DNA of 64,000 nucleotides, from NCBI RefSeq assembly GCF_038025025.1, contig NW_027117343.1:806001-870000 (forward strand). The letters are read 5' to 3'. This DNA is from Phyllosticta citribraziliensis. Lineage: Eukaryota. Below, in pieces: positions 5,696 through 58,773 of the stretch. Position 1 is the stretch's first letter. Every line of letters begins with the position of its first letter. The notes under the pieces were generated by a model. It saw only the letters and a program-made list of their open reading frames with translations, searched no databases and was not told where the DNA came from. The position numbers and the translations under genes were made by a program.

Positions 5696-6733
5696 ATGTT
5701 CTCCCGCACGCTGCCTCGGCTGCTGGGGCCAGCGCAGCGGCTTTGCTCGACACCAGAGGCACTGGTATCCACCAGAAGCATGCGCAAACATCTCGACCTG
5801 AAATGGGATACGCCCCGGATCCAACAAGTGCCAATGCTGCTTGAGGAGCTGAAAGAGATACATGGACTTCCTGGCATGGTCAAGATTATCGAAGGGGTCA
5901 TGCCCGAGGTGCGGAGCAGGCTGCAGACAGCAACGCCCAGCGATAGCCGCGAAAAGCATGACGCGAAGCAGGCTCGGAAGCAGCTCGAGCGGCTCAAGCA
6001 AGATGAATCCGACCCAGAAAAATATTTTCGCATTTTTGTCACCCAGATCTCGTCGAGAAGCGCTGTGCAGCGCGAGATTCTGGCGCTAGGTCGAGGGTTG
6101 AGCGTGCCGCACGCCCAGCTTCAGCATGACAATCTCCTGGCCTGCGTTCAGCACTTGTTCGACAGCGACAATTACCTATCTTTCGACAGCGCTCCTGAAA
6201 GAGCAAAGACCGAGACTTGGTTAGCGTGGGAGTACCTTCATCTGGGAAAGATGCAAGGCAATGCCATGGAATTTTACAGACAGAAGAGCCCTCTCGAGGC
6301 CGTTTCCATGAAGGACCCTGTCAAAGAGACGGAGAGCTTGTACAGGGTTTTGGACAGGGCACTTGGTGAGGAGCGCAGCTATCTTGTCGGCGGTGGGGGT
6401 GGCAAGTTCTCCGTGGCAGACATTGCAGTCTTTGGCTGGGTCAACGTCGCGTACCATTCCGGGATCAACTTGGAACGATTTCCCAATATCAAAACATGGT
6501 GGAAGCGGATCTTGGAGCGACCTGCGATCCAGTACGCGCTGGAGAGGACGAAGATTCGGGCGAAATACAACACGGGGTTTCTTGAAGCAATGGAGCGTAC
6601 CCCCCAGTTCAGAGAGCAAGAAGAGTCACTAAGGGAAGGCATGCGAGAAGCGTTGCGAAAGGCAAAAAAGGCGGCCAGGCTTCAATCTGCAAAGAGTCAA
6701 TATGGACGGGAACAGAGCATGGGGCCGTCGTGA
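5696..6733 (+). CDS. Divergent glutathione S-transferase-like protein (Ure2p/GstA/YfcG-type), 345 aa, intronless
   Basis: N-terminal remnant WDTPRIQQVPMLLEELKEIHG; LGKMQGNA; C-terminal YLVG...KFSVADIAVFGWVN...LERFPNIKTWWKRILERPAIQ typical of the GST C domain. Confidence 0.75.
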   Translation: MFSRTLPRLLGPAQRLCSTPEALVSTRSMRKHLDLKWDTPRIQQVPMLLEELKEIHGLPGMVKIIEGVMPEVRSRLQTATPSDSREKHDAKQARKQLERLKQDESDPEKYFRIFVTQISSRSAVQREILALGRGLSVPHAQLQHDNLLACVQHLFDSDNYLSFDSAPERAKTETWLAWEYLHLGKMQGNAMEFYRQKSPLEAVSMKDPVKETESLYRVLDRALGEERSYLVGGGGGKFSVADIAVFGWVNVAYHSGINLERFPNIKTWWKRILERPAIQYALERTKIRAKYNTGFLEAMERTPQFREQEESLREGMREALRKAKKAARLQSAKSQYGREQSMGPS

Positions 6734-7046
6734 AGGTGGCACGGCGAGGCGCTGAATGGAACCGCGCGCGTAGCTACAGAACCGACGGCCAGCCAGAGCG
6801 GCACAGCGACAGCCAGTCGTTCATCCGAAACACAAACGGCTTGCGACAAGGCGACATGTTTCGATTGAGGATTTTGGCATGCGCTGCAGCTCTCGAAGCA
6901 CCGTCGGCGGTTGGAGTTGGTGGCAGCCAATGGATTGGGGCCCATGACGTGAGGGCGCGGGAGCAAGGGTCAAGGTGCCCTGTCTCTTTTGCCGCCGCCA
7001 TCATTCTTCGAGGAGGCCAGTTTCAGGAATGCCGACCGACTTCGCG

Positions 7047-7090
7047 ACCACCACCACCACCACCACCACCACTGTGCGAGCTGCTATAAA
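7047..7090 (+). promoter_or_regulatory. (ACC)8 microsatellite followed by a TATAAA box upstream of the MARVEL gene
   Basis: ACC repeats at 7047-7070 and TATAAA at 7085-7090, followed by a CT-rich leader. Confidence 0.4.
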
Positions 7091-7573
7091 TCTTCCTCGT
7101 GCCCGCCACACCTGCCACCATCCGTTCCTCACCCATCTCACTCTTCAGTCTTTTTCCCCGGCAGTTGACCTGTCGACGGCGCTCACGGTAATAAAGAAAT
7201 AATCGTCTCTTTGAGCGGCATCTCGTCTTTGTCCTCTCTCTTTGTCGCGACTCCCATTTTTGGCCCACCCCGCCTTGTCCCCTCCTCCTCGTCTTGACAA
7301 TCACATTGTCCACTTCGACCGCCACTCGCGTGCGACCATTCATAAACACTGCGCCCAACCTCGACTCTCGACAATCCCATCATCCATTTCACCGCGCACT
7401 CACCTTTTGACAAGGTCCATCTCCAACCAACTTTTTCCCAAACAAGTAAGTCCACTCCTCTCCAGCGTCACGGCGAGCTTGCTCGAAAGACACGGACCCC
7501 CAGAAGCTGTATTATATTTGTTTGCAATCACCAACACTCGTGTCTCACTTCTAGGTCGCCGGCGACTAACATC

Positions 7574-8311
7574 ATGGCAACAGCCGCAGTTCTCGCCAAG
7601 CCCGTCCTCAAGTTCGCCTTCAAGCAGGGCAAAAAGGCGTACAACAAGCGCCAGTACCAGAAGCAATTCGACCAGCAATCCCAAGAGCACTACGTCCAGC
7701 ACGACCACGCCTTCCCGAGCACTCTGCACTCTCAACAACATCAACAACCTACGGCCCCTCCGCCAGCACACACCACCGACTCTTATCCCTACCAGCACTC
7801 GTACAACCAGTCCAACATGCTCAACCTCGGCAGCAGACTCCCCAAGGCCGACAGCGGCTCCGGCACCTTTGGCCTGTACCTGCGCATCTTCACGCGCCTC
7901 TTGCAATTCGTCATCGGGCTCACCGTGTGCGGGCTCTACGGGCGCGACCTGCACGCCGCACAGAAGGCCGGCGTCTACGCCGACTCGAAATGGGTGTACG
8001 CCGTGACGGTTGGCGGCCTCTCGGCGCTGACGGTCCTCATCTACATGATCCCGCTGTTCAAGAGCGCGACGCTGTTCGCGTGGGACTGGACGCTGTGGCT
8101 GCTCTGGCTGGTGCTGTTCGGCATCTTCGGCAAGATGTACATTTCCGAGGACGCAGAGGGCGACGCCGGCGTCCAGCGCATGAAGAACGCCGTTTGGGTC
8201 GACCTGACGGCCCTGCTGCTGTGGACCTCGACCGCCGCCTACGGTGCCGTCGCCTTTTGGCGCGCCAGGCGCGACGTCCAGCTGCCGTACGCGAAGAGCG
8301 AGGAGGCTTAG
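7574..8311 (+). CDS. MARVEL-domain four-TM membrane protein, 245 aa
   Basis: R..QFVIGLTVCGLYG.DL, SKWVYAVTVGGLSALT, WDWTLWLLWLVLFGIFGKMYI and RMKNAVWVDL are the typical fungal MARVEL motifs; strong GC3 codon bias. Confidence 0.88.
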   Translation: MATAAVLAKPVLKFAFKQGKKAYNKRQYQKQFDQQSQEHYVQHDHAFPSTLHSQQHQQPTAPPPAHTTDSYPYQHSYNQSNMLNLGSRLPKADSGSGTFGLYLRIFTRLLQFVIGLTVCGLYGRDLHAAQKAGVYADSKWVYAVTVGGLSALTVLIYMIPLFKSATLFAWDWTLWLLWLVLFGIFGKMYISEDAEGDAGVQRMKNAVWVDLTALLLWTSTAAYGAVAFWRARRDVQLPYAKSEEA

Positions 8312-9285
8312 GTGCCCGACGCGCAGCACGGCGAGCGCGGCGAGAAGGACTGCTGTTGTGCGTGCATGGACAAGTGATGCGCCATCCCCACTGCGGCGAG
8401 GAGGTACCGCGGACATGAGTGGAGTGGAGCACGAATGAATGGGCTGGCTGGCTGGCTGATGCGCGCGCCTTTTGTGCCGCGCAGGCGTTCGTTGATGGGC
8501 TTCGCGTTTGGCTCGATACCCACCACCTCTCTTATTTATTACTTGCGAATCAAAAATCAAGTTCATGACTCCTCAACTCTACTATTTCCTCTTTGCTCCT
8601 CTGTCTTGTCCCTGAACGTGTATGTCTATGTTTGGGTGCTGCGTATTGTACTTAGTCGCAGCGGCGTTGCGCGAGCTCAACCAAGAGAAGGACTACACTG
8701 CAAGTGAAAGTGAAAGAGGACCTGACCCGCCAGCAGCACTCCAGCTGTCGTCTGTACGCATCGGCAGCGACGGGAATACTCGCTTGTCTGAATGTTCTGC
8801 CCGCATGTCTACATAGGTAGTAGATGTGCCCAAAGCAGCCATCAATCACATACCTGTATCCAGTGCAGTCTCTGCCCACTATTTCACGGAAAGAGTCTCT
8901 TCTCTCTGCATACGTTCCTTGCAACCCTCTCCAATAACCCCACGCCCAAAGCAGCCATCACGTGCAGTGGTCAAGTCTTGGAATTCTTGAGAGAGCGATG
9001 TTTGGGAAAAGGTGCATAGGCAAATGCAGCGCGGTTGAATGGTCCTCGGACGCATTTGGACGTCATGTGACGGGTTGGAAGATTAGGACCTAGAAAGGGG
9101 GAGAGGATTTCTTTAGTTTGGCTACATGCATATACTCGGGCTACTCTGACTGCTTTGACCCAGTCCGTTCAGTATTTGCAACCATCCAGCCAGTCTTGCA
9201 TTGCACTCTTACTCTGGCTCTGCTGGAGGTGTAGCGTACGAAGTACGCAAATCACTCAAGACGCAAATCATCATTGCTTTGAAGT

Positions 9286-9625
9286 TTCGATTTCGATTCC
9301 GATTCCGACGCATTATGAGAAGAAACTTTCGCGCACTCAAAAAAACGAACTCCGAACTCCGAACAGCAAAACTCCTCCATCCCACCGCTCGATCCCAGAG
9401 CTTTTCTTTCAGACCGATTGCTCCACCGCCCCATGCGTGCGTGCGTGCAACCATGCAGTCCGGAATACCGTCGGAGCACCGGAAGGTAAACTTCAAAACT
9501 GCCGACTGCTTACACTGAGAACCGCAACTCCTCCGCTTTGAACACCGTAAACCGCAAAACCGCAAAAGTCCTCCGCAGCAACTTCCCGCAAACACCAGAA
9601 AAGCAGAAACCAGAAACCAGAAACC
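9286..9625. repeat. Cluster of short tandem repeats (TTYCGA x4, AACTCCG x2, ACCG[CT]AAA x3, CAGAAA[AC]N x4) at the left edge of the structured block
   Basis: Seen directly: ttcgatttcgattccgattccga, aactccgaactccgaac, accgtaaaccgcaaaaccgcaaaa, ccagaaaagcagaaaccagaaaccagaaacc. Confidence 0.7.
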
Positions 9626-9656
9626 CTCCGCGTGGTGCCCGAATGGCGTGGAAAAG

Positions 9657-10210
9657 GCGCCGTATGTACAAGTGCCGTGCCGTCGTAGTGTTGTCGTCGC
9701 CAGAAGACCGAGAGTGTGTTTGTGCTGCTTGCCGCAAGAAATAGGCAGACAAAGGTGTGGCAGCGGCGGTCGATGGATGAGGGACGACGGAAGGACGGAC
9801 GGACGAGTGGCGCAGGGCGTAAAGTGTTTGTTTGTTTGTCGCAGCACGCACGAGCGGGTGCTGGCCTTTGCCATTCAATAAGCACGCCCCCAAAGGCTGG
9901 GGCACCGAGTGTACATGAGAGTCGACGGCCGTGGGTGGATGCGTCGAGTCCGAAGAGAAGAGAGTAAGAGCGCCGTATGTACAGGTGTCGTTGTAGTCGA
10001 AGTACCGAGAGCCGCGTATTGCAAGAAGGCGAAGCAGCGTAGAGTGTCGGACGACGGATGATTAACGACGAAGGCGCAAGGCGGAAAGTGTTTGTAGCAG
10101 CACACACTAGCGGGTGCTGGCCAATGCCATTCAATAAGCACGCCCCCAAAGGCTGGGGCACCGAATGTACATGAGTCGACGGCCATAGAGGCGGCAAATG
10201 TGTCGAGCCA
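9657..10210. repeat. Two imperfect tandem copies (period ~255-315 bp), repeat family 1
   Basis: GCGCCGTATGTACA at 9657 and 9970. A ~75-bp block CGGGTGCTGGCC..TGCCATTCAATAAGCACGCCCCCAAAGGCTGGGGCACCGA.TGTACATGAG at 9855 and 10111. Confidence 0.9.
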
Positions 10211-10332
10211 GAGGAATGTACACTGTCGAGCCGGATCAGACGCGGGAAAAGGGCGCTGAACAGTAAAGGTCGGCTGTCGAGAACAAGGCGAAAGGGCAGA
10301 CAGGAACCGGAGGGGAAGAGGTCCTGAATGGG

Positions 10333-11785
10333 GCGATACGGGTGCCGAAAGGTAAGAGCGTATCGCGGGTCGACGGGCAGGGCAGAGCCACAGTCATGAC
10401 GAGTGTCGATGAGATCCGGAGGGTGTTGATCAGGGCATGGTAGAGGCACCACAGTCATATCCATGCATCAACGGTCGTCTCGAGAGGGTTCCAGGTTCCA
10501 AGGACGCGAGAAGCCGTGACAGAGGCCTCACCACAAAGCATGTCTGGCGCTGTTGTCCGTAAGGATGGGCGATACGGGGGTCCCGAAGGTGCTGCGGTAT
10601 CGCGGTCGAGTCGAATGGAACGAGGCAGAGGCTACCACCACAGAAGCGTGCCGAGTTGCTTAGACGAGGTCCTGGAGAAGGGAATGGAGAGGGGCGATCG
10701 GGCGTCCGGAAGCGCGTGCTGTGATCGCGGTGTCGACAGGCAGGCAGAGCCACAGTCATGCCGGTGTCGAGCTGGTCTGGATGGTTCCAAAGGACGCGAG
10801 AGTACGGGTTTGACGCCGTGTCTGAATCTCAAGCTACAAGGCTGCTCCGCCACGAGTATGCCGAGTGCTTCGTCCGATGGGGCGCTGCAGGGTCCCCGAA
10901 GGTGCTACGGCAGCGCGCAACTGGTCGAATTGTCCGTTGGAGGTGAGAAAGGCTTAAGGCTGAGCTCGAGGCCCAGCTGACAGCACATTTCTCGAGCATC
11001 AAGACGTAGCCCCGCCAAAAGCTTGTCATGCGCTCTGCCCGTGGAACGAATTCGCCAGTCTCTCCAAAGACGCGGTTTGTCTGAACTACGAAGGAACAGC
11101 TGACCCCGCTTCAGGCGCAAGACAGCCCCGCCAAAAGCCGTACGAGTGCCCTATCGATGGAGGAAATGAATGGGCCAAGTGTCCCTCAGTAGCGGCGCCA
11201 CCCGCTCTGATGAAAACGACTTTCCCGTCCATGGACGCAGTTTGGCTGAACTCCAAAGGAACAGCTGACCCCGCTTCAGGTAACAGACAGAGGCTCCGCC
11301 AAGCTTGTCACGATGCCCTGTCCATGGTGCTCCGCTATGGAGGCTTGCAAGTGTCCCTCAGAAGCGGCGCCACCCGCTCTGACGAAAGACGACTTGCCCG
11401 TCCATGGACGCAGTTTGGCTGAACTACAAAGGAACAGCTGACCCTGCTTCAGGAAACAAGACAGAGGCTCCGCCAAGCGTGTCATGATGCCCTGTCCATG
11501 GTGCTCCGGTATGGAGGCTTTTGCAAGTGTCCCTCAGCAGCGGCGCCACCCGCTCTGACGAAAGACGACTTGCTCATGTTTGGTGTCCATGGACGCAGTT
11601 TGGCTGAACTACAAAGGAACAGCTGACCCTGCTTCAGGAAACAAGACAGAGGCTCCGCCAAGCGTGTCATGATGCCCTGTCCATGGAACTCCGGATTGTG
11701 GTCATACGAGGTCCCCGAAGGTGCTACGGTATGCCGGTCGACAAAGGCTGGGCAGAGCCACAGTCTTGCACCCAGTGTCGACATT
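10333..11785. repeat. Dispersed repeat family 2: four hairpin modules (10333, 10569, 10882, 11703) and associated GGCAGAGCCACAGTC modules (10381, 10743, 11751)
   Basis: Shared loop GG(T)CCC(C)GAAGGTGCT(A/G)CG closed by inverted repeats; identical GGCAGAGCCACAGTC in three places. Confidence 0.85.
11000..11690. repeat. Tandem array of ~172-190-bp units (three near-identical copies at 11177, 11349, 11525 plus one diverged upstream copy), repeat family 3
   Basis: AAGTGTCCCTCAG-N-AGCGGCGCCACCCGCTCTGA ... GTCCATGGACGCAGTTTGGCTGAACT ... AAAGGAACAGCTGACCC.GCTTCAGG recurs with periods of 172 and 176 bp. Confidence 0.95.
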
Positions 11786-11963
11786 GTCCAGAAATAAACG
11801 TCTTCATCGAAGGGGGGTCATGCGCCCTCAGTTCACGGTGGCCCAACACCGCTACCTGAGCGACCGTCTTACAGTTGCCTCAGCCCTTTTGTGATGGAAT
11901 CGGGTTGCGCTATGCGCCTTAAATGCCCGTTGGTGCGAGTGCAATGCTCGTCTTGTATATACC

Positions 11964-12042
11964 GCGTCGTCCTGGAGGTCGGAGGACGGAGGGAATGATG
12001 AATGAGCCGGAAGAAGTGCGTCGTCCTGGAGGTCGGAGGACG
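11964..12042. repeat. Two identical 25-bp hairpin-forming copies, repeat family 4
   Basis: GCGTCGTCCTGGAGGTCGGAGGACG at 11964 and 12018; CGTCCT/AGGACG stem. Confidence 0.9.
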
Positions 12043-12123
12043 AAGAAAACGCGAAAAGTGGCCAGGAAGGTAGAAAGGGCATCATCATGTAAAGGTCGTG
12101 TTCCAGAAAGTTTTCCAAGACTT

Positions 12124-12657
12124 GTCGGGCATCAATTCGACCGTGGTATCTGCTCAACTCGAGAGAGGTGTCCCGGGTGGTCAAGGTTCACTGCGCTTTG
12201 GGCTGCACGAGACAGGACTCGAGGCTTCAAAGCTAAGCTCGCTAAAGCGAGCCTATTCGCGATTAGCCGTCAAAAGGGTAAGAATTGACGTCGCGGCAGC
12301 AGATAGAGATAGGCTTGAACCAGGAGAAACCACCGGGACGTGGAGGAGCGGATAGAGTGGGAATGGTCGGCTGAATTGATGTGGAAATGGTCGGACATCG
12401 ATTCGACTGTGACGTCTGCTCAACTCGGGGGAGGATGTGTCGGTGGTCAAGGTTCACTGCACTTTGAGCTGCACGAGATAGGGCTCGAGGCTTCAAAGCT
12501 AGGCTCGCCACAGCAGAGCCTATTCGCGATAAACCGTCAAAAGGGTAAGGATTGACGTCGCGGCAGCAGATAGAGAAAGGCTTGAACCAGGAGAAACCAC
12601 CGGACGTGGAGGAGCGGACGAAGTGGAAATGGTCGGTCGAATCGATGAGGAAAAGGG
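12124..12657. repeat. Tandem duplication of a 266-bp unit, repeat family 5
   Basis: GGTGGTCAAGGTTCACTGC at 12176 and 12442; CCGTCAAAAGGGTAAG.ATTGACGTCGCGGCAGCAGATAGAGA.AGGCTTGAACCAGGAGAAACCACCG in both copies. Confidence 0.95.
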
Positions 12658-12801
12658 AAAGTCCTGGAAAGGGTCGGAACACGGAACAGCGGCTGCTGAT
12701 TGGTGTGCGAGAAGAAAATGCGCGAGCCTGAAAGGAAGTGGTCGGCTGGATGGAAAGGCGCAGAATCGGGCACACTCAGCCGCGGGAGGGTGGTCGGTCA
12801 T

Positions 12802-15800
12802 TTAAGACCGCCACCAATTGATGATAAATAGCACCAGCACAGCAACTTGACCGTAGCCAGCGATCTGTGTGCGTGCTGGGGAGAAGGAGATGTCTTGGGA
12901 TAGGGTGTTCGCCTCGTGCCAGAGCTCTTCTTGCATGCTGTGTCCAATTGCCACGCTGGTCAAAAGGAAGAAAAACAGCAGCAGCATGAAGAAGAGAAGA
13001 GGCTGGCTGAATATGCTGGAGACGGATTTGCCAATGCAAGAAATGCAGGCGGGCGTCCTAGACCTCTTCATCGATGCTTCGAGGGCATCAATCCCGCCAT
13101 CAATGCGGTCAACACGCGAGTTGACCTCGTCGCGGCCCTTCAGAAGGAGCTCCTCAAACTCTCTGAGCATTTCTTGTGCCGACTTGGTGGGAAAAGCAGT
13201 AGAGGAGGACGGCTGGGCCAGCGCCGTCACCAGAGTCGACTCCGCGGGCTCAGGCGAAGAGACGGAAGTCAAAGCGCCAGAGGAGGATTGGTTGACCGGA
13301 GCCAGCTTAACTGAGCATACAACTTCGGTCTGGGTACCAGTCGACTCCGTGGGCTTAGGCGAAGACTCGGTGGATGGCGCAGCAGATGATGATGGCTGGG
13401 CCGATGTGAGCTGAAGAGACTCGGGGGCGGCGTCCTCGGAGTCCAACTCTGGCGCTTCTGAAGAAGGCATGATGCTCAGCGCGGTGGATGAGAGTGCTGC
13501 TGGCAAGGGTGAAGACGGCGTGGGGGCAGCTTCGTAGTCGGCCAACACGGCCTTGAGTGCATCGTAACGAGCCTCAAAATCGGCGAGCTGTGCCGTCAGT
13601 TTCTTGATGGTGATGTCCTTGCTGCGGTTGGCCCTAGCAGCAGTCGACATTTCAAGCTCCATCTCGTCGGAGGCGCCGGAGAGCTCGTTGGTAATGTTGG
13701 AGCTCGTGGTTTTGGTACTGCTGAGCGCACGCTGAGCCCGGCCGTACGAGAAGTTGGATGACGGGCCCGCCTCCTGCTGCGTGGGCATGCGGGTTCTGCC
13801 GGCGTTGTTCTTGAGGTCCTTTTGGAGCTTGAGATTGAGGGACCTGAGCTCTTCATGGCGCTGCTCGAGCTGGCGGCTGTGGGCGACCTCCGTGTCCACG
13901 TTCTGCTGAATCTGGCTATTGTCGGCAGTGAGCTTTGCGTTGGCATCGGTAAGCTTCATGACCTTCGCCGTCTGGGTGTCGAGCATGAAACGGAAGTTGC
14001 GGGTGAGGCTTTCCGACTTGCTCTTCTGCTGGTCCAACTCGGTCTGCTGCTGGTCCAACTCGGTCTGCAGGTCTTTGGCCTTGAGCTTTTCCTGCTCCAG
14101 CTCACTCTTGGTGGCGTCCAACTCTTGCTGGAGGACTTCACTTGAAGTCGCCTCGTTGTTGATGTAGAGGCGGGCTGACTCGAGAGCGGCTTCAGCGGTC
14201 TGAGCCCTCTGCTCCAGCTGGTTGAGGTTTTTCTCCCACTCTTCGGCAAGCGAGTCGCGTGAATCGATTTCGAACGCGTGGTCTGACTCCATGCAAATGA
14301 TGTGCTCGTCCAACTGGTCCTTGTCGCTCTTGAGGACCTTGATCGTGTCGTTGGCGCTGTCAAGCTCTGCATTGACGTTTGCAAGAGCCTGCTTGGTCGC
14401 CTCATCGGCGGCAACCTCGCGAGTGAGCTTCTTGTTGAGCTCGTCGGCATTGCTCTGGGCCTCGTCTCGGGCCTTGGCAGCAGAGGTGGTCAGGTCGTTT
14501 GCTTCCGCCAGCTGAGCCTCCAACGCGGCAAATTTCTCGCTGGTGCGAGCCTGGTCCGTCTTGAGCCTGGCGTTTTCTGCCTCCAGGTCGGCAATCCTCC
14601 GCTCATTCTCCTCTTCCTTCTCCGTCCTCAGCCTTTCCGTGGTTTCGTATTCCTCGCGCTTCTCCCTCCTCTTCGCTTGGGCTGCCCTCTGCTTGCCATT
14701 CCTGTGGGCCGTTCCTCTGCGCGTGCGAGCGGAACGAGCCGCGGGCTCGGAAGTGGGGGAGAGAGACCGGTTGGAAGAGGTCTCGGGCGAAAGAGGGCGG
14801 GTGGCAGAGTCGGTGGGTGAAAGAGGGCGGATGGGAGTGGTGGGCGTCTTTGGGCCGGTGGGCGAGGTGGGCTTGGGTGAACCCATCCTGTTGGGGTTCG
14901 ACCGAGACTTCTTGAGGAAGTGGCCGCGGATTTGGGCCAGGGAGCAAGGGGAGAGGTTTGCCAAGGTCTGCGCCTTGGGCGACGTGGGCGGGGCGAGGTA
15001 CGTGGGCGGGGCGAGGGTGTTGACGTTCACGTTGACGTCGGGGTTGGCGTCGGGGGCAGCGTCGGGGAGCTCCTCGTAGTCGACGTTGGGGCCCTGGGTG
15101 GGCTCAGCGTCGGGCAGGTCCTCGTCGTCCTTCTCGCTGTCCGCGTCGAGCAGTTCACCTGCGTCGACAGAAAACGGGGCCCTATCATCGGTTAGAAGTG
15201 AACTTCACATGTCGTGTGAACTTGTAGGCACTTACTCGACGTCCGCAGGCGCGTCCTCGATCACAACGTCGGCGTCGGCCGACGGTTCCTCCTCGGAAGG
15301 CGCGTCACACAGCTCCTCGTCGTCTTGAGGCGGCTGGGGACGGGCAAAGGGGTAAGCCAACGGCTGCGCGTCGGCTATTTCTTCGTCTTCGTCGTCGGAC
15401 GGCGACGGAGAACGGGCAGCGCGCTGCTGCTGCAGCTCCCCAAAAGAAGGGAAAACCACCGGCTGCTGCGGCTTCTGCTGCTGCAGACAATCGAAGACCG
15501 ACCGCTGCGGCTGCTGCTGCAGAGGGCGGAGAACAGATTGCTGCTGCGGCTGCTGCGGCAGAGCACTGAAGAGGGGGTGCTGCTGCACCGGTTGCGGCGG
15601 CGGAGGAGGCGGCGTCGTCGAAGGGCGACGAAAGAGAGGCTGCTGCTGCTGCGGCGGCGTCAGGCACGCGGGAAGGGCGGCCTGGGAGAAGAAGTCGGCA
15701 GGGTTAACCTGCAACGGACGCGCGCAGTCGATCTCCTCGTCCTTGGGCGGGGACGATGGCGGAGGAGGGGGGACAGCAGGAGAAGGGGTGGTCGGGGCGG

Positions 15801-16503
15801 CGGCGACGGCGACAGCCAACTTCCCGAGGCCGGGGATCCGACTCGGCAGAAGCTCAAAGGGCGCAGAGGAACGGGCCGGAGCCTCGTTCATGCGCACTGG
15901 CTTCTGAAAGCCCGGGATGTTGCCGTCGGGGAAGGCCCTGGGCTTCTCGGGCGGCGGCGCGTTCTTGGCCAGGTCCAACAGATCCGAGAACGTGGACTTT
16001 GGCTTCACCGGAGCAGCTGGCGGGGCTGCCGGCTTCGGCTGGGGCTGGGGCTGGGCAGCTGGCGGCGCTGCCACAAAGGAGAACGTCGCCGGGGGCGTCG
16101 ACTCGGAAGCCGGACGCAGGTACACGCTCGGCGAGGAGGTGCTGGGCGGCGGCGGAGGGATGGCGGCGGCGGCGTTGGGGGCAGCCGGAGATGGGGTCGC
16201 GCCCTCGGTCTTGACGCGCTTCGAGCGCTCGGGCGATGGCGACGGGGAGCGGGCGCGGCGGCGGCCTCGCGGCCCTTGCGGCGAGGGCGAGGGGGCGATG
16301 GCGCGGGCGGGGCGGTTGGGAGAGGGAGTCCTCGGGACTCCAAGAGGAGAGGTGGCGGCTGGGGTGGTGGTGGTGGTGTTGCGCCCAGCGTAGGGGTGGC
16401 TTTGGGTCATGGTGGTGAGCTCAGCGGGCTGCTGAGCCATGACAAAGCCGGCGCCCACGTTGCGCACGACACCGGAGTCTTTCTTTGGCATACAACCGAC
16501 CAT
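12802..16503 (-). CDS. Orphan 1215-aa protein: Pro/Gln-rich disordered N-terminus, long coiled coil, Ser/Thr-rich linker, two C-terminal hydrophobic helices; exons 16503-15236 and 15181-12802
   Basis: Intron 15182-15235 (GTAAG...CTAAC...TAG) fuses the 516-aa and 742-aa ORFs in frame (1268+2380 nt). Strong GC3 bias, heptad-rich segment, TM-like LLFFMLLLFFFLLTSVAIG and VAVLVLFIINWW. Confidence 0.8.
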
Positions 16504-18628
16504 GGTGAATGTGTGATCGGAGGTCTGGTTGGATGGTTGGTTGGAGGACAAAGAGGGAGGACAAAGAGGGCAAAGGAAGGGTGGGTGGTGTGGTGTGGAG
16601 TCGGATGAAAGAAAGAGAGGTTGCGAAAGGTAAACAACTCCACGGCGAGAGGTGGATGGGACGGCGACGGCGACGGCGACGGCGGTCTGTGCTCTGAGCG
16701 CCTGCCTCGTGGGCGCTGCACCGAAGAGAAACTCCTGTCCCATAACACCGCCCGCTGCTTCGCCGGCTATACTCTGGCGCAAATGCCAGTGGGTACTCCA
16801 CGAACTAGACTATATCAGGACAGCTCGACGTCGAGCGCAAGCAGGTGCTGGTGCCCTGCCAGGCCTGGAGGCTTGGGACGGGATGGACAAAGGCCGCGAT
16901 CTTCTCCTTTGGTGTTGTGCACGGGATCGGCACAACAAAGGAACACCACGCTGCTGAAGCCTCAATCTGGCAAGTTGCGCAATGGAAGCGATTGAAAAGA
17001 TCCAATTGACAGTATAATGACTGACAATCTTTGAGAAACAGAACAAAGGCCTACCTTTCTTTGCGCACACGTCCCCGAATCCCGTCTCTTTTGGACAAAA
17101 ACACTGGCTTCGACTGCCTGTGCGAAAGCAAAGCCCACGAGAATAAGACTCGGGATGGAAAGATCAAAAGACAAAGAAGACTGTCAAAGAATTTGAAATG
17201 GACAAAGAACAAGGAGCCCGGCTGTCGAGGTGCAACCAGTCCGGGCACCAAGTTGGTCCTGCGTCTGCAACCGGAACGACTCTTTGACATGAGGAAACCA
17301 AAGCGCTGACCTAGAACGAGGTACATTAGGTACGGCAAGTCTTCAGGGAGGATTTTGAAGGCGCTTACCTCGACGACCGCCTCTTGCGCATTGAAAGCCT
17401 GGAGTGGCCCTCCAACAGCCCACCCACCGGCCGGCTGGGCAACCACCGCTCCAGACGCAGCAGCAAGCCCATTTTCGTTGGAAATGCTGCCATCTGCTCG
17501 TTCAGCGGCTTACTACATACCACAGGCTCGTCATAGCACCGACGTTGTCTTCGTATGACAATTAACACCCAGGCGGTCGATGAGACGACGTTGAAAAAAA
17601 GCCGCTAGGCCCGATGGACCCCTGCAGGGCGCCAAGCGCGGGATCTCTCTTAGCGCCTGGATCCGCGCGCTTGCGGGGGCGGACTTGGCCCGCCACAGGG
17701 AGGCGTGTGCGTGGCGATCGATGACGAGAGCTGCCCCTCCGCTCGCTTCGTTCAGCTCCGACAAGGATGGTCGATCAGAATTGCGATGGAGGAATAAAAG
17801 GAGGGACAAGCTAGGGGCTGTTGATGTTGAACAGGGTTGCCGGTGCAGGGCAGCCGAGTCGTGAGCGGCGGAAGCGTGGATTCGTTGGGGACACGTTCGC
17901 TGCTGCTGCGACAACGCTGGCGGACCCTGCGAGCTGTTGCTGCCGCCCTTGTCAACATTCAACGAGCAACCTCGCGGCCCAAAAGCGTGCATTCATGTTG
18001 TCGAACTGCGATCTTCAGGACCAAATTCGGTTGGCGAGCTCCAAAATTGACTTCCGTGGTCCTCAAAGAAGCGTCAGGATAGCGACGGCGCTTCCCAGGA
18101 CTCACAGAGAGTGAATGAAGACGGTGGTTTTAGGCTTTCGGCAGGGTCGGCGGCCGTCGCTCTGTTTCTATTGTTGTCGTTGCTTCGACAGGGCTGTAAG
18201 ATTAAAGGCGCTGATAAGAATCTCTTGGCGGTGAAGTGGGGGGAGCTCGCTGATCGCTTTCCCTAAGGTCGGAGGCTGGTGAGGCTACATCGTAGGGCAA
18301 TCTTCTCGCAAATGGGCGATAACAGAGTCGTTGAGATGGAAATGATGGCTAGCGTAGAAAGACTTCTTGATTCTTTTTCAATAGCGAGCTACTATAACCC
18401 AGGTGGAAACGGTTTTGGAAACATCTACGAGGAGCAAGCGAGCGTCAAAGCACAGCGCCAGAATAGAGGAAAACAATCGGCAAAACAACTGGCCAAACCA
18501 AACCTCGTCCAAACTCCTGAAAACGCCAGCCTCCTCTCGGCCTCTCGAGAGCTCAAAATCCGCTTGCATAATTTACGTGGATAAACTTGGCTGCAATCCA
18601 CGACGAAGAGAAGCACACGTGAGCTGGT

Positions 18629-44623: not shown

Positions 44624-47600
44624 ATGCTGTCGCGAGCCAGCAGCGACGCCGGGACCCGCCTGCGTCATGCCAAGTCGTCTTCGTCGACATATTCCAACGG
44701 CTGTCCAGCGAGTCCCACCCGGGTCGACCAAATGGATCCGTTCATCGTCCGCGAGCAAGCCACGGCAGCCGCTGTGCAGGCGTATGAGCGAGCCTGCGCC
44801 ATGGAGCATGCACGGATAAGAGAGGAGCAACGCAGTCTAGAGCTCAGCAGAAATCGCAGCAACACTAGTCGCCGGTCACACGGTGGCTCCCAGGGCTCTC
44901 ACTTTCCCGCCAGGGCCTCGAGTCTTCGACAAGCCGGTGAATCTAGCGCCACGAGAAGACGCACCTCGCCGAAGTTGCGGAGAGTCAGTGATGAGAGTCA
45001 ACCGCAGTTGATCATGGAACAACCTCCTCCCCGTTACACCCTTGTTCGTGATCCTCCGCCACCTGCTCCGCGTCTTTCTCTGGCGCCGGATATCAAACTG
45101 CCTGTATCCCCTGCTCCACCCTCGCGTGCGGCGCCCTCTGTACCGTCTGTCGCGTACGCAAACACACCAGCGACGCCGGCACCGAGGGAGGTTCGCAAGT
45201 CTCGTTCAATGTACAACTCTTGGAGCATTGGACTGGGGACTCCTCGAGACAGACGCCACGACGTTTCCGTGGACCTGCGTCGCTCTACCAGCCACCGGGT
45301 AATCGAGAACCAGCCGCCCGCCAAGTCAGGATTCAGTCCTGGCAGCGTCAGCCCTGAGAAATTTGGCAAGGCAAGTGTTGAAGAAGTTAATGCATCGCGG
45401 GACAAGTATCTGCAGGATTACCACAAGGGCCGCAAGTTGAAGACCAGACCGTCGTTTATCCTGACGCCGTTCAAGAAGCGCCAGGACAAGGAGAAAGACC
45501 ACACTGTTCTTGCGACGCCCAGGGAGTGCGCCTCGCCTCCTCCTGATGCCACTCCCAAAGCCGTCTCCCCGGTCGAAGGCACGACAAAGCATGAGAAGGA
45601 GAGGTCATTTTCCAACTCCTTCAGAAACAAGTTCAAGCGCGTTTTTCGCAAGACTTCAAACCCAAAGGCGTCAAATCTTCCTGTGCAGCAAGTCGACGCC
45701 TCGAGGTCTTACTATGGCGACTCAGTTTCGACATCTCAGCGAGAGGTGTCTGCTACGACGGAGCGAGTCGGCTCCATGTCGGACGACAGCCAAAGAGTTC
45801 CCTCGCATCAGCGAACGACCTCTGGTGCATCATTGCCACTTTCTCACAGGTCGAGCGCCGGAGGCTCTGATGGCGACGTTAGCAAGTCCCGTGTCACGAG
45901 CTGGTCTAACTCTTCTGCTCCGGGTAGCGTCACTTCTCGCGACCCAGGACGGCTCTCTATGATTCCCGAAAACGGACCCGGGACTACAAAGAAGCGTAGT
46001 GGATCCTCCATTTTGGGCAGGAGTCCATTTAGGCGGCCTCTGCATGCTTCACCCCAGGCAGCGTCAAAGGAGCTTGACACTTTCGATGTTTACTCGGCGC
46101 TCAAGTCGAGGCTGGAGAAGGCTGGATTGGACAGCAACATCGACCCTGACCTGCACCATCCGGAAAAGGCCGCCAGTTCGAAGAATGAACGCGATACGCT
46201 ACCTTCTCAGAGCCGGATGAGTTCGACGGCTTCCAGACTGTCGCGTGCCACCAGAGCTACCATCCGCGCCGTTACCCCTGAGCGTGGTTTTCGCTCGCGG
46301 TCAAAAGAGAGAAACGACATGGCTTCGGTCCCGATGTATGATGAATCTCTCGGCATACCAAAGCCCAAAAAGTGTCACGAGCCAGAGGCATCAGATCCGA
46401 CGGCTGAAGTTCCCGAACTCACTGTTCCTCGCACTCGCCATCCACAGCGTGCCGTCAAGGCGACGTTGCCGACGCAGGAGCAAATTACGAAGCGCAAGCA
46501 TTTGGCCGATAGTCGTTGGAAGACACAACTAGAGCAGGGTCAAGCTTCCGGCCATCTCGACAGTTCTGGCACCATCTCAGCTGAGGAGAATCCATATGAG
46601 CTTACGCGGTTGAACCAACCCCCGAGCCCAAGTAAGACCATTCCAACGCCACCACGCAAGTCGAGCAAAAGACCCTTCGAAGCAGCCGAACTTCTCAGAG
46701 CGTCCATTGTCTCGCCGAGCGTCTACTCCAGAGACTCGGCTGGCAACTCGCCAGTTCGCAAACCCAGCACGGCAACCATCAATGGGCCTCCGGGCATTGC
46801 AGTCATCGTGTCGAGCCACTCGGCCAAGAGCTACACGCTCGGATCCTCACCCGATCGCTCGAGGGCAGGCAACGTAGAGCGCTCGGCGCAGTCGAGCCGC
46901 GACTGGAAAGACTGGCTCAGCAGGGAGGTTGCTGATTTCGAATCCGACGATGTCGACGTTAGTATGTCGGAGGATTGGCTTCTTAAGCCCGCCGCTGGCC
47001 ACCAGCGCGAACATGCGCAGATCAGCGAGGACGACGAGGATGCTGTCGTTGCTCCCGCCAGCCAGAGATACGCTTCCAGCCCCAACCTGCGCTCGACAAT
47101 TGTAGCCCCTGCCTCGCGCTCCGCGTCGAAATCGGACATGCGTATTTCCAAAGGCGCGACGTCTTTCCCGGACCTCGACTTGTCAACGCAGCAGCCGCGG
47201 CAGCGGCCTCGATTGGCAAAGAGCTCGTCGACGCTGATGAATGACCGCTTTCCTGTGTTGCGGACGAGACGCAATGGCAGCGCGACGACTAGCTGGCGCA
47301 CCCAGTCGAGCAGCAGCTACAGCTTCCACGGCGAGGCGAAGCGCTCGTCGTCGAACCCGGTTCTCCTTTCGCGGCCGCCGTCTCAGGCGCAGCAGCGCGT
47401 GCAAGAGCAGCACGGTAGGCCTGAGCACTACCATCCGTCGCCTCCACTGCCGACTTTGGCGTCGACCTCGGCGGCAAAGGAGAATCACCGTCCTGTACGC
47501 CACCGCGACGAGGCTGCTGCCAATGCCGGAAATGCAAATAAACACACTGGCTCGCTCAACGGAAATGCCGCTACCGCGCCTGCGTCGCTGAAACTCCAGC

Positions 47601-48811
47601 CGCGCTCCTCGCACTCGAGTCTGGCGCCGTACACGACGAGCGCGCAGGACGCGGCGGCTGGCCTCCCGTTTGCTGGCCCTCCGCCGCCCCCGGCGCCCCC
47701 TTTGCCCAATTTCTCTTCGTCGGCCTTTTCCTCCTCGTCCGTTACGCCGTCAAATGGTACTGCGCTGCCGTCTGCCAGACACGCGAACGCGGGTGGGAGT
47801 GGGAATGGGAGGGAGAATGGAAATGGATATGGCAGCGTCAACATCGGCAACCCCCTCCGCTTCCGCGCCGCGCTCGCCGCGTCGTCGGCCTCGGGCTCGC
47901 CGTCGCCGTCGCAGGCTTCATTGAGGTCAAAGGCGGGCTTCGTGGGCGGTGGTGTCGGTGTTGGGCACGCGCGCTCGGCTTTTGAGCTCAGGGGCCACGC
48001 ACTCGGGCAAAGTCAGGCCGCCGGATATGGAGGCCACCCCAGAGGCCCGGCCGTGACGGCGCGCGTCCGCCGCAAGCCGCTGAGCAGCAGCGCGAGCACG
48101 TTTGGCACTGTGGGCACGAAGGGCACCATGACGACGATGGGGATGCAGGGAGGCCCGCGCCTGTCGATGGGCAGTGGCGGCAGCAGCGAGACGATGGCGT
48201 TTATCATGCGCGGTCCGTACGGAGCCGGAGGCGGCGACGTGAGCTCCAGAGCCAGCGTCAGCGTCAGCGGCGGCGAAGAAGAGGCGGACGAGACGGAAGG
48301 ATTCGGCTACGGCGTCCATGACTACCCCGGCGGCGGCTTTGCCTACGGCTACGGCTACGGCGTTGCCTACCACGACGCCTCTGGCCACCCTGTGCCTTTT
48401 GCTTCGTCGGTGGCGGACGGCTCGGTCCCGCAACTGCAGCAGCAGGGTCCGCTCAAGGAACGCCGCAGCATGGGGCGGCTGTGTGGAGCGTTTGGTCCTT
48501 CTACGCATCCTCCTCCTCCTGTCCCTGGATCTTTTGGCCCCGCTGCCCCGGCTCGTCTCCCCGTCGACCGCGTCCCGACGCCTTCGCCCATGGCGTCTGC
48601 TTTTTTCAGCGGCGGCGGCGCCGGTGGTGGTGGTGGTGGTGGTGGCAACAACAACGGCAGCGTCACTGGCGGCCAGCGCTTGGCCGAGAGGTGGTTGAGT
48701 GCGCGACAGGTGGGTGGTGGTGGGAGTGTGAGTATGAGTGGTGTGAATGGTGTGAATGGTGCGAGGCAAATGAGGAGTCGCAGTCGCACGGGTAGTCCGG
48801 CGTTTGTTTGA
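44624..48811 (+). CDS. Large intronless Ser/Pro/Arg-rich disordered protein, ~1395 aa, function unknown
   Basis: 4.2-kb open frame from ATG 44624 (MLSRASSDAGTRLRHAKS). Short conserved-looking islands (SFRNKFKRVF, SRVTSWSNS, VYSALK, SPSVYSR, SRDWKDWLS) in low-complexity sequence. Confidence 0.8.
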   Translation: MLSRASSDAGTRLRHAKSSSSTYSNGCPASPTRVDQMDPFIVREQATAAAVQAYERACAMEHARIREEQRSLELSRNRSNTSRRSHGGSQGSHFPARASSLRQAGESSATRRRTSPKLRRVSDESQPQLIMEQPPPRYTLVRDPPPPAPRLSLAPDIKLPVSPAPPSRAAPSVPSVAYANTPATPAPREVRKSRSMYNSWSIGLGTPRDRRHDVSVDLRRSTSHRVIENQPPAKSGFSPGSVSPEKFGKASVEEVNASRDKYLQDYHKGRKLKTRPSFILTPFKKRQDKEKDHTVLATPRECASPPPDATPKAVSPVEGTTKHEKERSFSNSFRNKFKRVFRKTSNPKASNLPVQQVDASRSYYGDSVSTSQREVSATTERVGSMSDDSQRVPSHQRTTSGASLPLSHRSSAGGSDGDVSKSRVTSWSNSSAPGSVTSRDPGRLSMIPENGPGTTKKRSGSSILGRSPFRRPLHASPQAASKELDTFDVYSALKSRLEKAGLDSNIDPDLHHPEKAASSKNERDTLPSQSRMSSTASRLSRATRATIRAVTPERGFRSRSKERNDMASVPMYDESLGIPKPKKCHEPEASDPTAEVPELTVPRTRHPQRAVKATLPTQEQITKRKHLADSRWKTQLEQGQASGHLDSSGTISAEENPYELTRLNQPPSPSKTIPTPPRKSSKRPFEAAELLRASIVSPSVYSRDSAGNSPVRKPSTATINGPPGIAVIVSSHSAKSYTLGSSPDRSRAGNVERSAQSSRDWKDWLSREVADFESDDVDVSMSEDWLLKPAAGHQREHAQISEDDEDAVVAPASQRYASSPNLRSTIVAPASRSASKSDMRISKGATSFPDLDLSTQQPRQRPRLAKSSSTLMNDRFPVLRTRRNGSATTSWRTQSSSSYSFHGEAKRSSSNPVLLSRPPSQAQQRVQEQHGRPEHYHPSPPLPTLASTSAAKENHRPVRHRDEAAANAGNANKHTGSLNGNAATAPASLKLQPRSSHSSLAPYTTSAQDAAAGLPFAGPPPPPAPPLPNFSSSAFSSSSVTPSNGTALPSARHANAGGSGNGRENGNGYGSVNIGNPLRFRAALAASSASGSPSPSQASLRSKAGFVGGGVGVGHARSAFELRGHALGQSQAAGYGGHPRGPAVTARVRRKPLSSSASTFGTVGTKGTMTTMGMQGGPRLSMGSGGSSETMAFIMRGPYGAGGGDVSSRASVSVSGGEEEADETEGFGYGVHDYPGGGFAYGYGYGVAYHDASGHPVPFASSVADGSVPQLQQQGPLKERRSMGRLCGAFGPSTHPPPPVPGSFGPAAPARLPVDRVPTPSPMASAFFSGGGAGGGGGGGGNNNGSVTGGQRLAERWLSARQVGGGGSVSMSGVNGVNGARQMRSRSRTGSPAFV

Positions 48812-56686: not shown

Positions 56687-58773
56687 GTGAGCGATGGAGT
56701 CGTCACGTCGTCTGCGAGAGATGAAAAGAGGGTGGATGAGAGTGCACGTGTGGGTAGAGAGGAGGCGTAAACAGTGGCGTCCGTCGGCGTCAAGATGTCG
56801 CGCGGAGAAACGTCGAGAAGAAAAGAGCCACGGAGACTGATCATGTGTCGTCGAACGCATTCTCGGTAGCAAGCCGAGAGAAAACGGCAAACGATCGGCA
56901 GGTTTGTCCATTATCAAATTACCTGGGGTCAGAAAAGCAAGCATAGGGAATCGGACGGCGTAATGGCGTTTTTGGGGCGCTGGGGTATGAGAAGCGCTCT
57001 ACGGAAAGAGCAGGGAGAAACAGCATGACGTGGTTCAGCGGTAGCGGGTAAAGGTAACGTCAAACACAGGCGGCGTCTTCTCGTCTTTCTCTCTCTCTCT
57101 TCGTCTTCTTAAATCGCCATACCGTGCCCTATCGTCCAGAGATTGACAAGAGCGGAGAATCGGGGCAGGACAGGAGACGCGCCATTCCCGTCCTGTCGTG
57201 CTAGCACATCTCGACGCATGCTTTGGGCCAAAGCAGACGATGAGTGCGCGTTTGCCTCCTTCCGCCGTCTTGTCTTTCTTTTCACTCCCCTCTTCATCTG
57301 CCTTGCGGGCGTAGAGGCAGCCAGCCACCACATGGAGACTTGGTGCAACAGGACGAGACACGCACACAAAGAGACGGGGAGACTAGCGGGATTCTTCCCG
57401 TTTTGGGTCGCTTGAGCTGGTCGGCCATCTGAGACGGAATGGAAGAGCTGGCGGTGATGGATGGTTGACGACGACCGGAGGGACGAGAGGGTTGGTGGGT
57501 CGTCATGGCGAGAGTGCCAGATGACGGCGTGGGTTGCAAGGAAAGCAAGGGCTCAAAGTGCTAGCACATGATCGGCCGGCAAAGACAAGTCCACGGTCAA
57601 CGGTCCTGGAGAGGCGCGCGCCGACGGCGAGCACGGTGGTTTGTTGTCAGTTCGGCCATGGTGTTTGTCGGGCGCAACGAGCGGGCATGGATGAAATGAC
57701 AGGCGCGTCAGCTCACGGCAGCTGCCAAGGCCCGTCGGCGGGCGGAGCGAGAGCGAGCACCGTGTGTGGCCTGGCCTTGCAGTCGACGCCAAGAGGAAGG
57801 GGACAAAAAGCGCGAAGGCTGGGTTGGCCCTGCAACACGAGCCACCAAGGCGGGAGTGGCCTTTTTCCAGATTGGCGGCCCGGCTAGCTGGGCGTGGTTC
57901 GCTTTGGCGCCTCTCACCTCGACTACCACGCAGACAACACCAGTGCGCCGACGGAATCGTTGTGTGTTGTAAATGTAGAAGTCGACGGCGACGAAGCGAA
58001 CCGAGAGAAGAGCAGGTTCTGGGGATTTGATCGGCTGTGGAGATGGCCGGACGGGATGATGGAGAGGAATCTGCCGCCTCAGGGCCCAGGGGGTGGCTCA
58101 AGCGACATGGAGCAACACCAATGACGGCATCACCATGGACTCACCAGTCGCTCAGCTCAGCCCAGCTTCGGTTCAGTTGTTCCAGTCGCCACGGCAGGCA
58201 GACAGGAAGAAAGAGATTGACAGCTCGCGGGACCTTGCAGCAGAAAACATGTACCTCGCTCGTAACCGCCGGGGCGCCCAGCGGCATCCTTCGCGCCGAC
58301 CTGGACCTGACCACCTCATGCACCTGCCCTGACAGGCCCAGAGGCGCTCGGTCTCCAGTTTTCCCAAACACGCTGTTTGAAACGCTCACGGCATGCCCAC
58401 CGTCTCCACGTCTTTATCTACATATGTACCTACTCCTCCGCAGAACTAACTAACCTCGTGCTTTTTCTTTTCTGCTGCCCCATCTGCTGGTTGCCCCGGT
58501 GTCTGTCCCTCATCACCACCACCTCCTCAATTTCCTTGCTCTTCCTTCGCTCTATCCGAGGCTGCTGGCCCACCTCTTCTTTTCCCTTTCTCTCTTCCGC
58601 TCCTTTACATATTTCTGCTTCTTCTCTTCTCTCCCTTTCCTGTGTCAATCCGCCCCCGGCAGCAGACTGGACTGAGCATTCACCTATCCCTTCCGTTGTA
58701 TCACCCTGCCACCACAATCCAATCCCCACATCTCGCACCCACTGCTCCACTCCCACCCACCACCCCATCCACG

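What the first reader, a model, noticed from the sequence alone, without database searches (positions are those of the whole stretch)
9657..12657. 3-kb non-coding block assembled from five families of duplicated, self-folding modules: candidate undescribed structured RNA system
Seen: between the MARVEL gene and the stop codon of the orphan coiled-coil gene (12802) lies a gene-free, GC-rich block made largely of duplicated units of ~255-315, ~35, ~175, 25 and 266 bp. Each unit type is closed by its own inverted repeats. Differences between copies fall mainly in loops and bulges or are compensatory (see the separate findings). Several A-U/G-U alternations work only on the + strand. No transposase, LTR or TIR was found, and the block is not AT-rich as RIP-degraded repeats would be. 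Inference: selection on secondary structure, meaning a multi-domain lncRNA (+ strand, convergent with the orphan gene), a very long structured 3' UTR of that gene (localisation or translation elements), or a small-RNA precursor cluster. I cannot assign it to any RNA family I know.
Basis: partly seen in the sequence, partly recalled or inferred. Interest (0 to 1): 0.8.

Follow-up and report, generated by a model that had tools for sequence, protein, structure and literature searches.

The report
Modular structured 3' UTR, two orphan genes
The block is the unusually long, repeat-built tail of a fungal mRNA, and two of its folded RNA motifs recur in the tail of a second gene whose protein shows no detectable similarity, which suggests a shared, apparently undescribed RNA address or control signal.

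Summary
The duplicated units are real, but the block is most likely not a + strand lncRNA. It is the ~3.5-kb 3' UTR of the minus-strand orphan gene ending at 12802. In a relative, one spliced contig (CT..AC intron) runs from the 5' leader through the CDS and the block. The gene encodes a membrane-anchored coiled-coil protein found only in Phyllosticta. The block as a whole folds no better than controls; some modules do. The 266-nt unit has z -5.1 on the minus strand, and its copies diverged while keeping the fold. A ~40-nt hairpin keeps a near-invariant internal loop inside five different perfect stems. New here: that hairpin and the 175-nt unit recur at one other place found in the genome, behind a second coiled-coil/TM orphan with no detectable protein similarity, followed by its own seven sense-folding repeats. 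No Rfam, transposon or viral match. Best reading: cis-acting, protein-bound UTR elements that co-regulate (localise or translationally control) two orphan mRNAs. The UTR and module structure are supported; the function is inferred.

The parts
9284..12801 (-). Inferred ~3.5-kb 3' UTR of the orphan gene; 3' end near 9284-9356 is a weak hint only
   Evidence: X3 record 16 (7764 nt) carries CDS and block, loose end at 9356; X1 record 3 (11657-13454) bridges the stop; X2 record 11 begins at 9284
12802..16503 (-). Orphan CDS, 1215 aa: Pro-rich N-terminus, coiled coil, hydrophobic C-terminal anchor; predicted intron 15182-15235
16504..18342 (-). 5' leader, 1531 nt spliced, introns 16805-17054 and 17311-17368; 9 upstream ATGs with their own frames and 2 in frame with the CDS
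12390..12656 (-). 266-nt module, copy a (z -4.4 minus, -4.2 plus)
12124..12389 (-). 266-nt module, copy b (z -5.14 minus, 0 of 200 shuffles; -2.78 plus); long closing stem with a compensatory change between copies
11964..12045 (-). Two 28-nt small hairpin repeats
   Evidence: (D18)
11738..11790 (-). A module (stem closed by GUCGAC); further copies at about 10738-10785 and 10372-10424, degenerate at 10610-10656; always just 5' of an H hairpin
11696..11740 (-). H hairpin 1: perfect stem, CGUAGCA internal loop, UUCG-capped apex; shared with C4
11050..11690 (-). U modules (~175 nt): half copy 11576-11690, full copies 11397-11575, 11225-11396, 11050-11224; each full copy opens with a ~50-nt hairpin holding two invariant U-G pairs; shared with C4 (two copies)
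10903..11051 (-). Degenerate U copy and spacer, alignable to C4 at 67%
10877..10921 (-). H hairpin 2
10689..10733 (-). Degenerate H hairpin (stem kept, loop changed)
10564..10608 (-). H hairpin 3
10328..10371 (-). Degenerate H hairpin
9645..10215 (-). Two 255-313-nt modules; folding not better than shuffles
7574..9135 (+). Convergent MARVEL-like gene and its 3' UTR; a separate, deeper contig ending about 9100-9135; not part of the element

Best explanation
The block is the 3' UTR of the minus-strand orphan mRNA. It grew by tandem duplication of stem-loop modules, and unit number still changes by unequal crossing over. Some modules are under selection as RNA structures. The H hairpin behaves like a protein-binding site: the stem only has to pair, the internal loop has to keep its sequence, and it is present in several copies. 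The same H and U modules lie behind a second membrane-anchored coiled-coil orphan on contig C4, so one RNA-binding factor most likely handles both mRNAs, carrying or anchoring them to one membrane site and/or holding back translation until they arrive. Shown: repeats, transcription joined to the CDS, module structure, the second locus. Inferred: the strand (from intron orientation in one contig), the binding protein, localisation or translational control, and transcription of the C4 block.
For: One X3 contig holds the minus-strand splice joint 17308-17367 (CT..AC), the CDS and the block; X1 record 3 bridges the stop codon. H core flanked by perfect Watson-Crick stems of 5, 7, 7, 7, 9 and 6 bp in 6 of 6 copies, five different stem sequences; background P(>=5) 0.0064, P(>=7) 0.0005; covariation 0.345, 0 of 500 shuffles, slid controls at most 0.139. 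266 unit z -5.14 on minus; 0 of 60 simulated duplicates fold together as well. U consensus -26.8 minus against -20.7 plus. Modules found at two loci only, both on the sense strand just behind an orphan ORF, with no similarity between the proteins (best E 0.19). C4 repeats: z -3.6, -5.6, -3.7 sense against -0.7, -0.3, -0.9 antisense for the 3 of 7 copies tested. In the relative the listed block pieces differ by about 5%, the orphan CDS by 6.9%, the distal MARVEL 3' UTR by 18% or unalignable (table 8).
Against: The block overall folds no better than controls; the 255 units, whole U units and A+H units have z between -1.7 and +1.2. Folding does not fix the strand: the H, A and 266 modules have lower energy and more wobbles on +, and for the 266 pair the structure-conservation index is stronger on + (0 of 60) than on - (3 of 60). 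Contigs cannot show strand, ends or level, and can merge overlapping RNAs (tool note). The MARVEL 5' UTR (3.4%) and the GST 3' end (6.3%) are as conserved as the block. Copies are few and related, so the covariation counts are not probabilities. No binding protein, localisation or expression of the C4 block was tested.
Confidence: 0.55

Rival explanations
1. Same UTR, but the modules control decay or processing: they shield a very long UTR from nonsense-mediated decay, or block an exonuclease and release a stable distal RNA (about 9284-10135).
For: The distal part is deeper than the rest in two runs: 157 and 146 against 36-63 in X1; 66.5 against 0-3 in X2. Nine upstream ATGs and a 3.5-kb UTR would make a decay target (general knowledge).
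Against: Contig depth is flat per contig and cannot rank parts of a gene; the 5' leader is also deep in X1 (131-207), so library bias can explain it. The shared H and U modules lie upstream of the deeper part. X3 has one contig across it.
Confidence: 0.15
2. Neutral relic: slippage and unequal crossing over made the repeats, template switching perfected the stems, and one old ectopic copy put the modules on C4.
For: No block-wide folding signal; the relative lacks whole units (skips of 254, 359 and 260 nt); template switching can create and repair stems in one event (PMC8794818, abstract and opening text read).
Against: It does not explain why the unpaired H loop stays fixed while stems are replaced, why both loci lie sense behind orphan stops, or the sense-only folding of the C4 repeats. 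Every module type is kept at least once in the relative, at about 5% divergence.
Confidence: 0.14
3. Independent + strand multi-domain lncRNA, convergent with or antisense to the orphan gene.
For: Lower folding energies and some + only wobbles in the 266, A and H modules.
Against: The block is joined to a minus-strand spliced RNA; MARVEL contigs stop near 9100-9135. The + strand is G-rich, which lowers raw energy; by z-score 266b is better on minus. At C4 the same modules follow the ORF on its sense strand.
Confidence: 0.07
4. Remnant of a mobile element or an integrated RNA virus whose structured ends were captured.
For: Modules at two unlinked loci; genus-restricted ORFs; repeated stem-loops recall viral UTRs (recalled, no call).
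Against: Only two loci found; no TIR or transposase; both proteins single copy; no viral relative; 45 viral 14-mer hits share nothing beyond the seed; the window gene has spliceosomal introns.
Confidence: 0.05
5. Precursor cluster of Dicer-made small RNAs.
For: Several hairpins in one transcript.
Against: No long near-perfect hairpin: the inverted repeats of 14 nt or more with both arms in the block are the closing arms of the 266 units; conservation falls on internal loops and short stems.
Confidence: 0.04

Closest known systems
Conserved fungal 3' UTR structures (thioredoxin, RING finger, thioesterase, GLY1, MET13; Gao, Jones and Rivas 2021, PMC8216456, passages read)
   Same: Covarying RNA structures in 3' UTRs of ascomycete mRNAs, proposed there to bind RNA-binding proteins.
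   Different: Those are 48-170 nt, predominantly single copy, tied to one conserved gene and spread over a subphylum or family. Here multi-copy modules fill a multi-kb UTR, are shared by two dissimilar orphan genes and were found in one genus only.
rps0 and rps20 3' UTR motifs, hexA motif (Li and Breaker 2017, PMC5640933, passages read)
   Same: Hairpins with conserved internal loops in fungal UTRs, read as protein-binding sites.
   Different: Different sequences and host genes; the passages seen describe no tandem arrays.
ASH1/She2-type localisation elements (zipcodes) of budding yeast (recalled)
   Same: Several redundant stem-loops per mRNA, in which loop bases matter and stem sequence is free, shared by unrelated mRNAs, many for membrane proteins. 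This is what the system most likely works like.
   Different: The recalled CGA-plus-C signature is not constant in the H copies (read). She2p was not found, but that search had no working control. Not a member on present evidence.
Lineage-specific coiled-coil scaffolds of filamentous fungi (Spitzenkorper scaffolds, PMC7275032, search listing only; SPA proteins, Leashin and KASH-like tethers recalled)
   Same: Fast-evolving coiled-coil proteins with low-complexity linkers; some are membrane-anchored.
   Different: No sequence or family link; I found no report of such UTRs for them.

Membership tests
Any Rfam 15 family (ribozymes, snoRNAs, SRP, riboswitches) | Match to a covariance model | tested here: not met
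   0 at gathering score in 64 kb; 0 up to E 5 in 8300-12900
Structured 3' UTR of a protein-coding mRNA | Same transcript and strand as the CDS | tested here: met
   X3 record 16 and X1 record 3; strand inferred from a CT..AC joint in contigs, not from stranded reads
Structured 3' UTR of a protein-coding mRNA | Covariation-supported structure | tested here: inconclusive
   Positive among paralogous copies for H and 266; none for the U hairpin, which is invariant; no deep orthologous alignment
Structured 3' UTR of a protein-coding mRNA | Poly(A) site at the end of the block | not testable with these tools
   Only contigs were served; no pile-up of ends (table 6)
ASH1/She2 zipcode | She2p in the genome | tested here: inconclusive
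   No match, but nothing rang in the 14 controls either
ASH1/She2 zipcode | Element is sufficient to localise a reporter | not testable with these tools
   Needs an experiment
Transposon, MITE, SINE or satellite | Dispersed or high copy number | tested here: not met
   Two loci; the genome search scores only best candidates, so counts are lower bounds
Transposon, MITE, SINE or satellite | TIR, LTR or transposase | tested here: not met
RIP-degraded repeat | High TpA/ApT, low (CA+TG)/(AC+GT) (thresholds recalled: about >0.9 and <1.0) | tested here: not met
   0.66 and 1.12
Fungal telomerase RNA | Telomere template (recalled 9-mer) | tested here: not met
   2 one-mismatch hits in the window, none in the block; 3.1 expected by chance
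milRNA or siRNA precursor | Discrete small RNAs from stems | not testable with these tools
   No small-RNA run listed
Endogenous viral element | Viral relative of protein or RNA | tested here: not met
   these scans find close relatives only

The most novel reading that the evidence does not exclude
A genus-specific RNA regulon built from portable modules: two non-homologous membrane-anchored coiled-coil proteins (one N-anchored, one C-anchored) are partners in one structure, their mRNAs are brought together by shared multi-copy stem-loop zipcodes that outlast all protein similarity, and dose is tuned by expanding or contracting the module arrays. This would be a structure-based zipcode system in a filamentous ascomycete.
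Probability: 0.25. Interest if true: 0.8.

Novelty: new variant of a known kind. Interest (0 to 1): 0.58.

Why it matters
Structured localisation or translation elements are well known in budding yeast and animals (general knowledge); my searches turned up no multi-kb modular example in filamentous ascomycetes. The H hairpin is a 40-nt motif with natural stem variants and a fixed loop, ready as bait for its binding protein. Shared UTR modules also link two orphan genes that protein comparison leaves unconnected, and suggest a way to group orphans by their RNA. If the function is only neutral or local, it remains a clean case of how long UTRs grow by module duplication.

Tried and rejected
Rfam at two thresholds: nothing. 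120-nt sliding z-scores: mostly weak, and too short for the 266 unit. One search used a structure that I had set one column off; one search is the corrected register taken from the folds, so it leans towards my structure. The permutation test is biased (a mismatch makes its own site unpaired) and was replaced by simulated duplicates. Metagenome scan for the U motif: 0. Viral 14-mer scan: 45 hits, chance or coding. 68 MARVEL loci of other fungi: no similarity to the orphan or the UTR; no H module in the 28 of 68 with longer flanks. Third locus: not found. Of 41 two-mismatch pattern hits outside the two loci, 24 had loci and scored at most 15.9 bits against 35-51 for the training copies; 17 were not tested. 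The C9 hit lacks the rest of the hairpin. ESM Atlas: no hit at 0.9 or above. P0008 is a spurious repeat hit. No run is on record as RNA ('no RNA holder listed'); RNA is inferred from splice joints. Depth falling from 9300 to 15000 in X1 fits 3' bias, but the leader is deeper, so I do not count it. X2 gaps in the block are not counted. A by-eye resemblance of H to SRP helix 8 (recalled) was dropped: no Rfam match and the G-A pair and GNRA loop are missing. Earlier findings were not available. PMC11234323 (abstract, section 13) was read and not used. Supplements of the Phyllosticta genome papers were not read and could list these genes.

Full report
Setting. The window is G000:C6:806001-870000 of a 31-Mb, 22-contig fungal assembly. 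The window's orphan protein is identical over the searched part to an entry labelled Phyllosticta citribraziliensis. The block lies between a MARVEL-like gene (+, 7574-8311; weak Pfam hit, E 0.0015) and the stop of a minus-strand orphan at 12802.

Observation. All five repeat types are real and cover about 76% of 9657-12657. The block is not GC-rich relative to the window (0.573 against 0.568) and not RIP-like. None of its 7 ORFs of 100 aa or more has a Pfam hit, and Rfam finds nothing. As a whole it is not unusually folded: 33 local stems against 34.0 +/- 5.0 shuffled; 21 windows of 240 nt average z +0.12 (minus) and -0.38 (plus) against -0.05 and -0.10 for 30 control windows, p 0.75 and 0.41.

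Which RNA is it? Four runs were listed, none on record as RNA; all four were laid as contigs on 6500-18500. X1, X2 and X3 show splice joints, so they hold RNA. In X3, from a relative, one 7764-nt contig (record 16, depth 727.4) has listed pieces in the block (10179-11305, 11665-12387), the CDS (12648-15084) and the leader (17367-18500), with a CT..AC joint at 17308-17367, a minus-strand intron. A joint and a loose end of the same depth extend it to about 9356 (my inference; that piece is not listed). In X1, near-identical to the window and perhaps from the same source, record 3 (11657-13454) bridges the stop codon. MARVEL sits on separate, deeper contigs ending near 9100-9135. The simplest reading is a minus-strand mRNA with a 1.5-kb spliced leader, a 1215-codon CDS and a 3' UTR of about 3.5 kb. 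Contigs cannot show strand or ends directly and may merge overlapping RNAs, so a + strand RNA is not excluded.

The relative. X3 skips 9924-10179, 11305-11665 and 12387-12648 (254, 359 and 260 nt; not splice ends): one 255 unit, two 175 units and one 266 unit. Copy number varies but every module type remains. From table 8 I computed 59/1127 (5.2%) and 35/723 (4.8%) differences in the block, 169/2437 (6.9%) in the orphan CDS, 104/1134 (9.2%) in the leader, 32/182 (17.6%) plus an unalignable 364 nt in the distal MARVEL 3' UTR, but also 11/325 (3.4%) in the MARVEL 5' UTR and 34/537 (6.3%) at the GST 3' end. The block looks constrained, though no more than other transcribed flanks.

The second locus. 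A genome search with the block gave one other place, C4:1224459-1224603. About 800 nt there share the H hairpin (three copies), the 175-nt U unit (two copies) and a spacer with window 11690-10860 at 65-77% identity, in another order. They begin about 220 nt behind the stop of an 865-aa ORF with hydrophobic N-terminus and long coiled coil, on its sense strand. The two proteins show no similarity (best E 0.19), and each is single copy. Relatives were found only in Phyllosticta, at 87% and about 44% for the window gene and 48-56% for the C4 gene; the word-based searches scored only 8000 candidates. Further downstream C4 has seven copies of its own ~230-nt unit, which fold on the sense strand only: z -3.6, -5.6, -3.7 against -0.7, -0.3, -0.9 for the three tested; consensus of five partial copies -32.4 against -21.4 kcal/mol. 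Expression of C4 was not tested. No third locus appeared, with the limits given under Tried and rejected.

Module evidence. H: the core CGYAGCA, a 2-3-bp apex with a pyrimidine loop (UUCG in the three window copies) and a GACC-type 3' side is closed by perfect Watson-Crick stems of 5, 7, 7, 7, 9 and 6 bp in 6 of 6 copies, of five different sequences. At random sites the best of six offsets reaches 5 bp in 0.64% and 7 bp in 0.05%. On the eight-copy alignment the covariation score is 0.345, reached by 0 of 500 shuffles, against at most 0.139 when slid (after the mis-registered); the copies are related, so this is not a probability. 266: copy b folds at z -5.14 on minus and -2.78 on plus; 0 of 60 simulated duplicates fold together as well, on either strand. 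U: the opening hairpin is 98.6% paired in five copies with two invariant U-G pairs and two one-sided changes that pair only on minus, but it shows no compensatory change; alone it folds equally well on both strands by z. The 255 units, whole U units and A+H units are not better than shuffles.

How it most likely works. A free stem around a fixed internal loop, repeated within a UTR and shared by two mRNAs for unrelated membrane-anchored coiled-coil proteins, is the pattern of a cis-element read by one RNA-binding protein (inference from known zipcodes, recalled). I favour co-localisation and/or translational gating of the two mRNAs (0.55), with multivalency set by unit number. The long leader with nine upstream ATGs fits tight translational control. 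Rivals are decay or processing control (0.15; the distal 850 nt are deeper in X1 and X2), a neutral relic with template-switched stems (0.14; PMC8794818), a + strand lncRNA (0.07), a mobile or viral remnant (0.05) and a small-RNA precursor (0.04).

Comparison and novelty. The closest described class is covarying fungal 3' UTR structures, 48-170 nt and predominantly single copy (PMC8216456, passages), and internal-loop hairpins such as rps0 (PMC5640933, passages). Searches on Phyllosticta genomics and on fungal UTR structure or localisation (listings only unless stated) showed no description of these loci or of a comparable modular UTR; the library lacks most subscription papers and I read no supplements. 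It works like a zipcode or regulon UTR but is not shown to be a member of any named family. Verdict: a real, apparently undescribed set of RNA motifs in an unusual architecture, a new variant of a known kind, so far limited to one genus and without functional data. Interest 0.58.

Noticed in passing
G000:C4:1226284-1227900 (L013 1285-2901): Seven tandem ~230-nt units behind the C4 orphan, with sense-only folding and compensatory changes; unique in the genome. A stronger structure signal than most of the window's block.
   Followed up: partly
window 12289 and 12556 (minus); C4 1226689-1227435: The 266 unit and the C4 230-nt unit each hold a GUCRA/UYGAC hairpin with a pyrimidine loop ending UACCCUU-like; profile searches did not link the families, so it is suggestive only.
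   Followed up: partly
window 15084-17154: The relative's contig skips the whole Pro-rich first coding exon; database orthologue P0005 (802 aa) lacks it too, while P0007 keeps it. Lineage-specific loss or alternative splicing.
   Followed up: partly
L002 about 859-932: The C4 ORF's TAA is followed in frame by about 23 codons with a hydrophobic run before the next stop (read by eye); possible readthrough or a recent stop.
   Followed up: no
window 9284-10135: Deeper contig cover than the rest of the UTR in X1 and X2; a separate stable RNA or library bias.
   Followed up: no
window 7445-7584: The MARVEL 5' intron uses different acceptors: 109 nt skipped in X2, 138 nt in X3; the latter removes the ATG at 7574.
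   Followed up: no
window 9500-9640: A/C-rich short repeats on +; a similar tract at C4 1224820-1225000 lies in the opposite orientation relative to its gene.
   Followed up: no
window 58000-60999: Excess of local stems (70 against 41, z 5.8) over a GC-rich GH16 gene; probably codon composition.
   Followed up: partly
window 44624-48811: 1395-aa ORF without a Pfam hit; another possible orphan.
   Followed up: no
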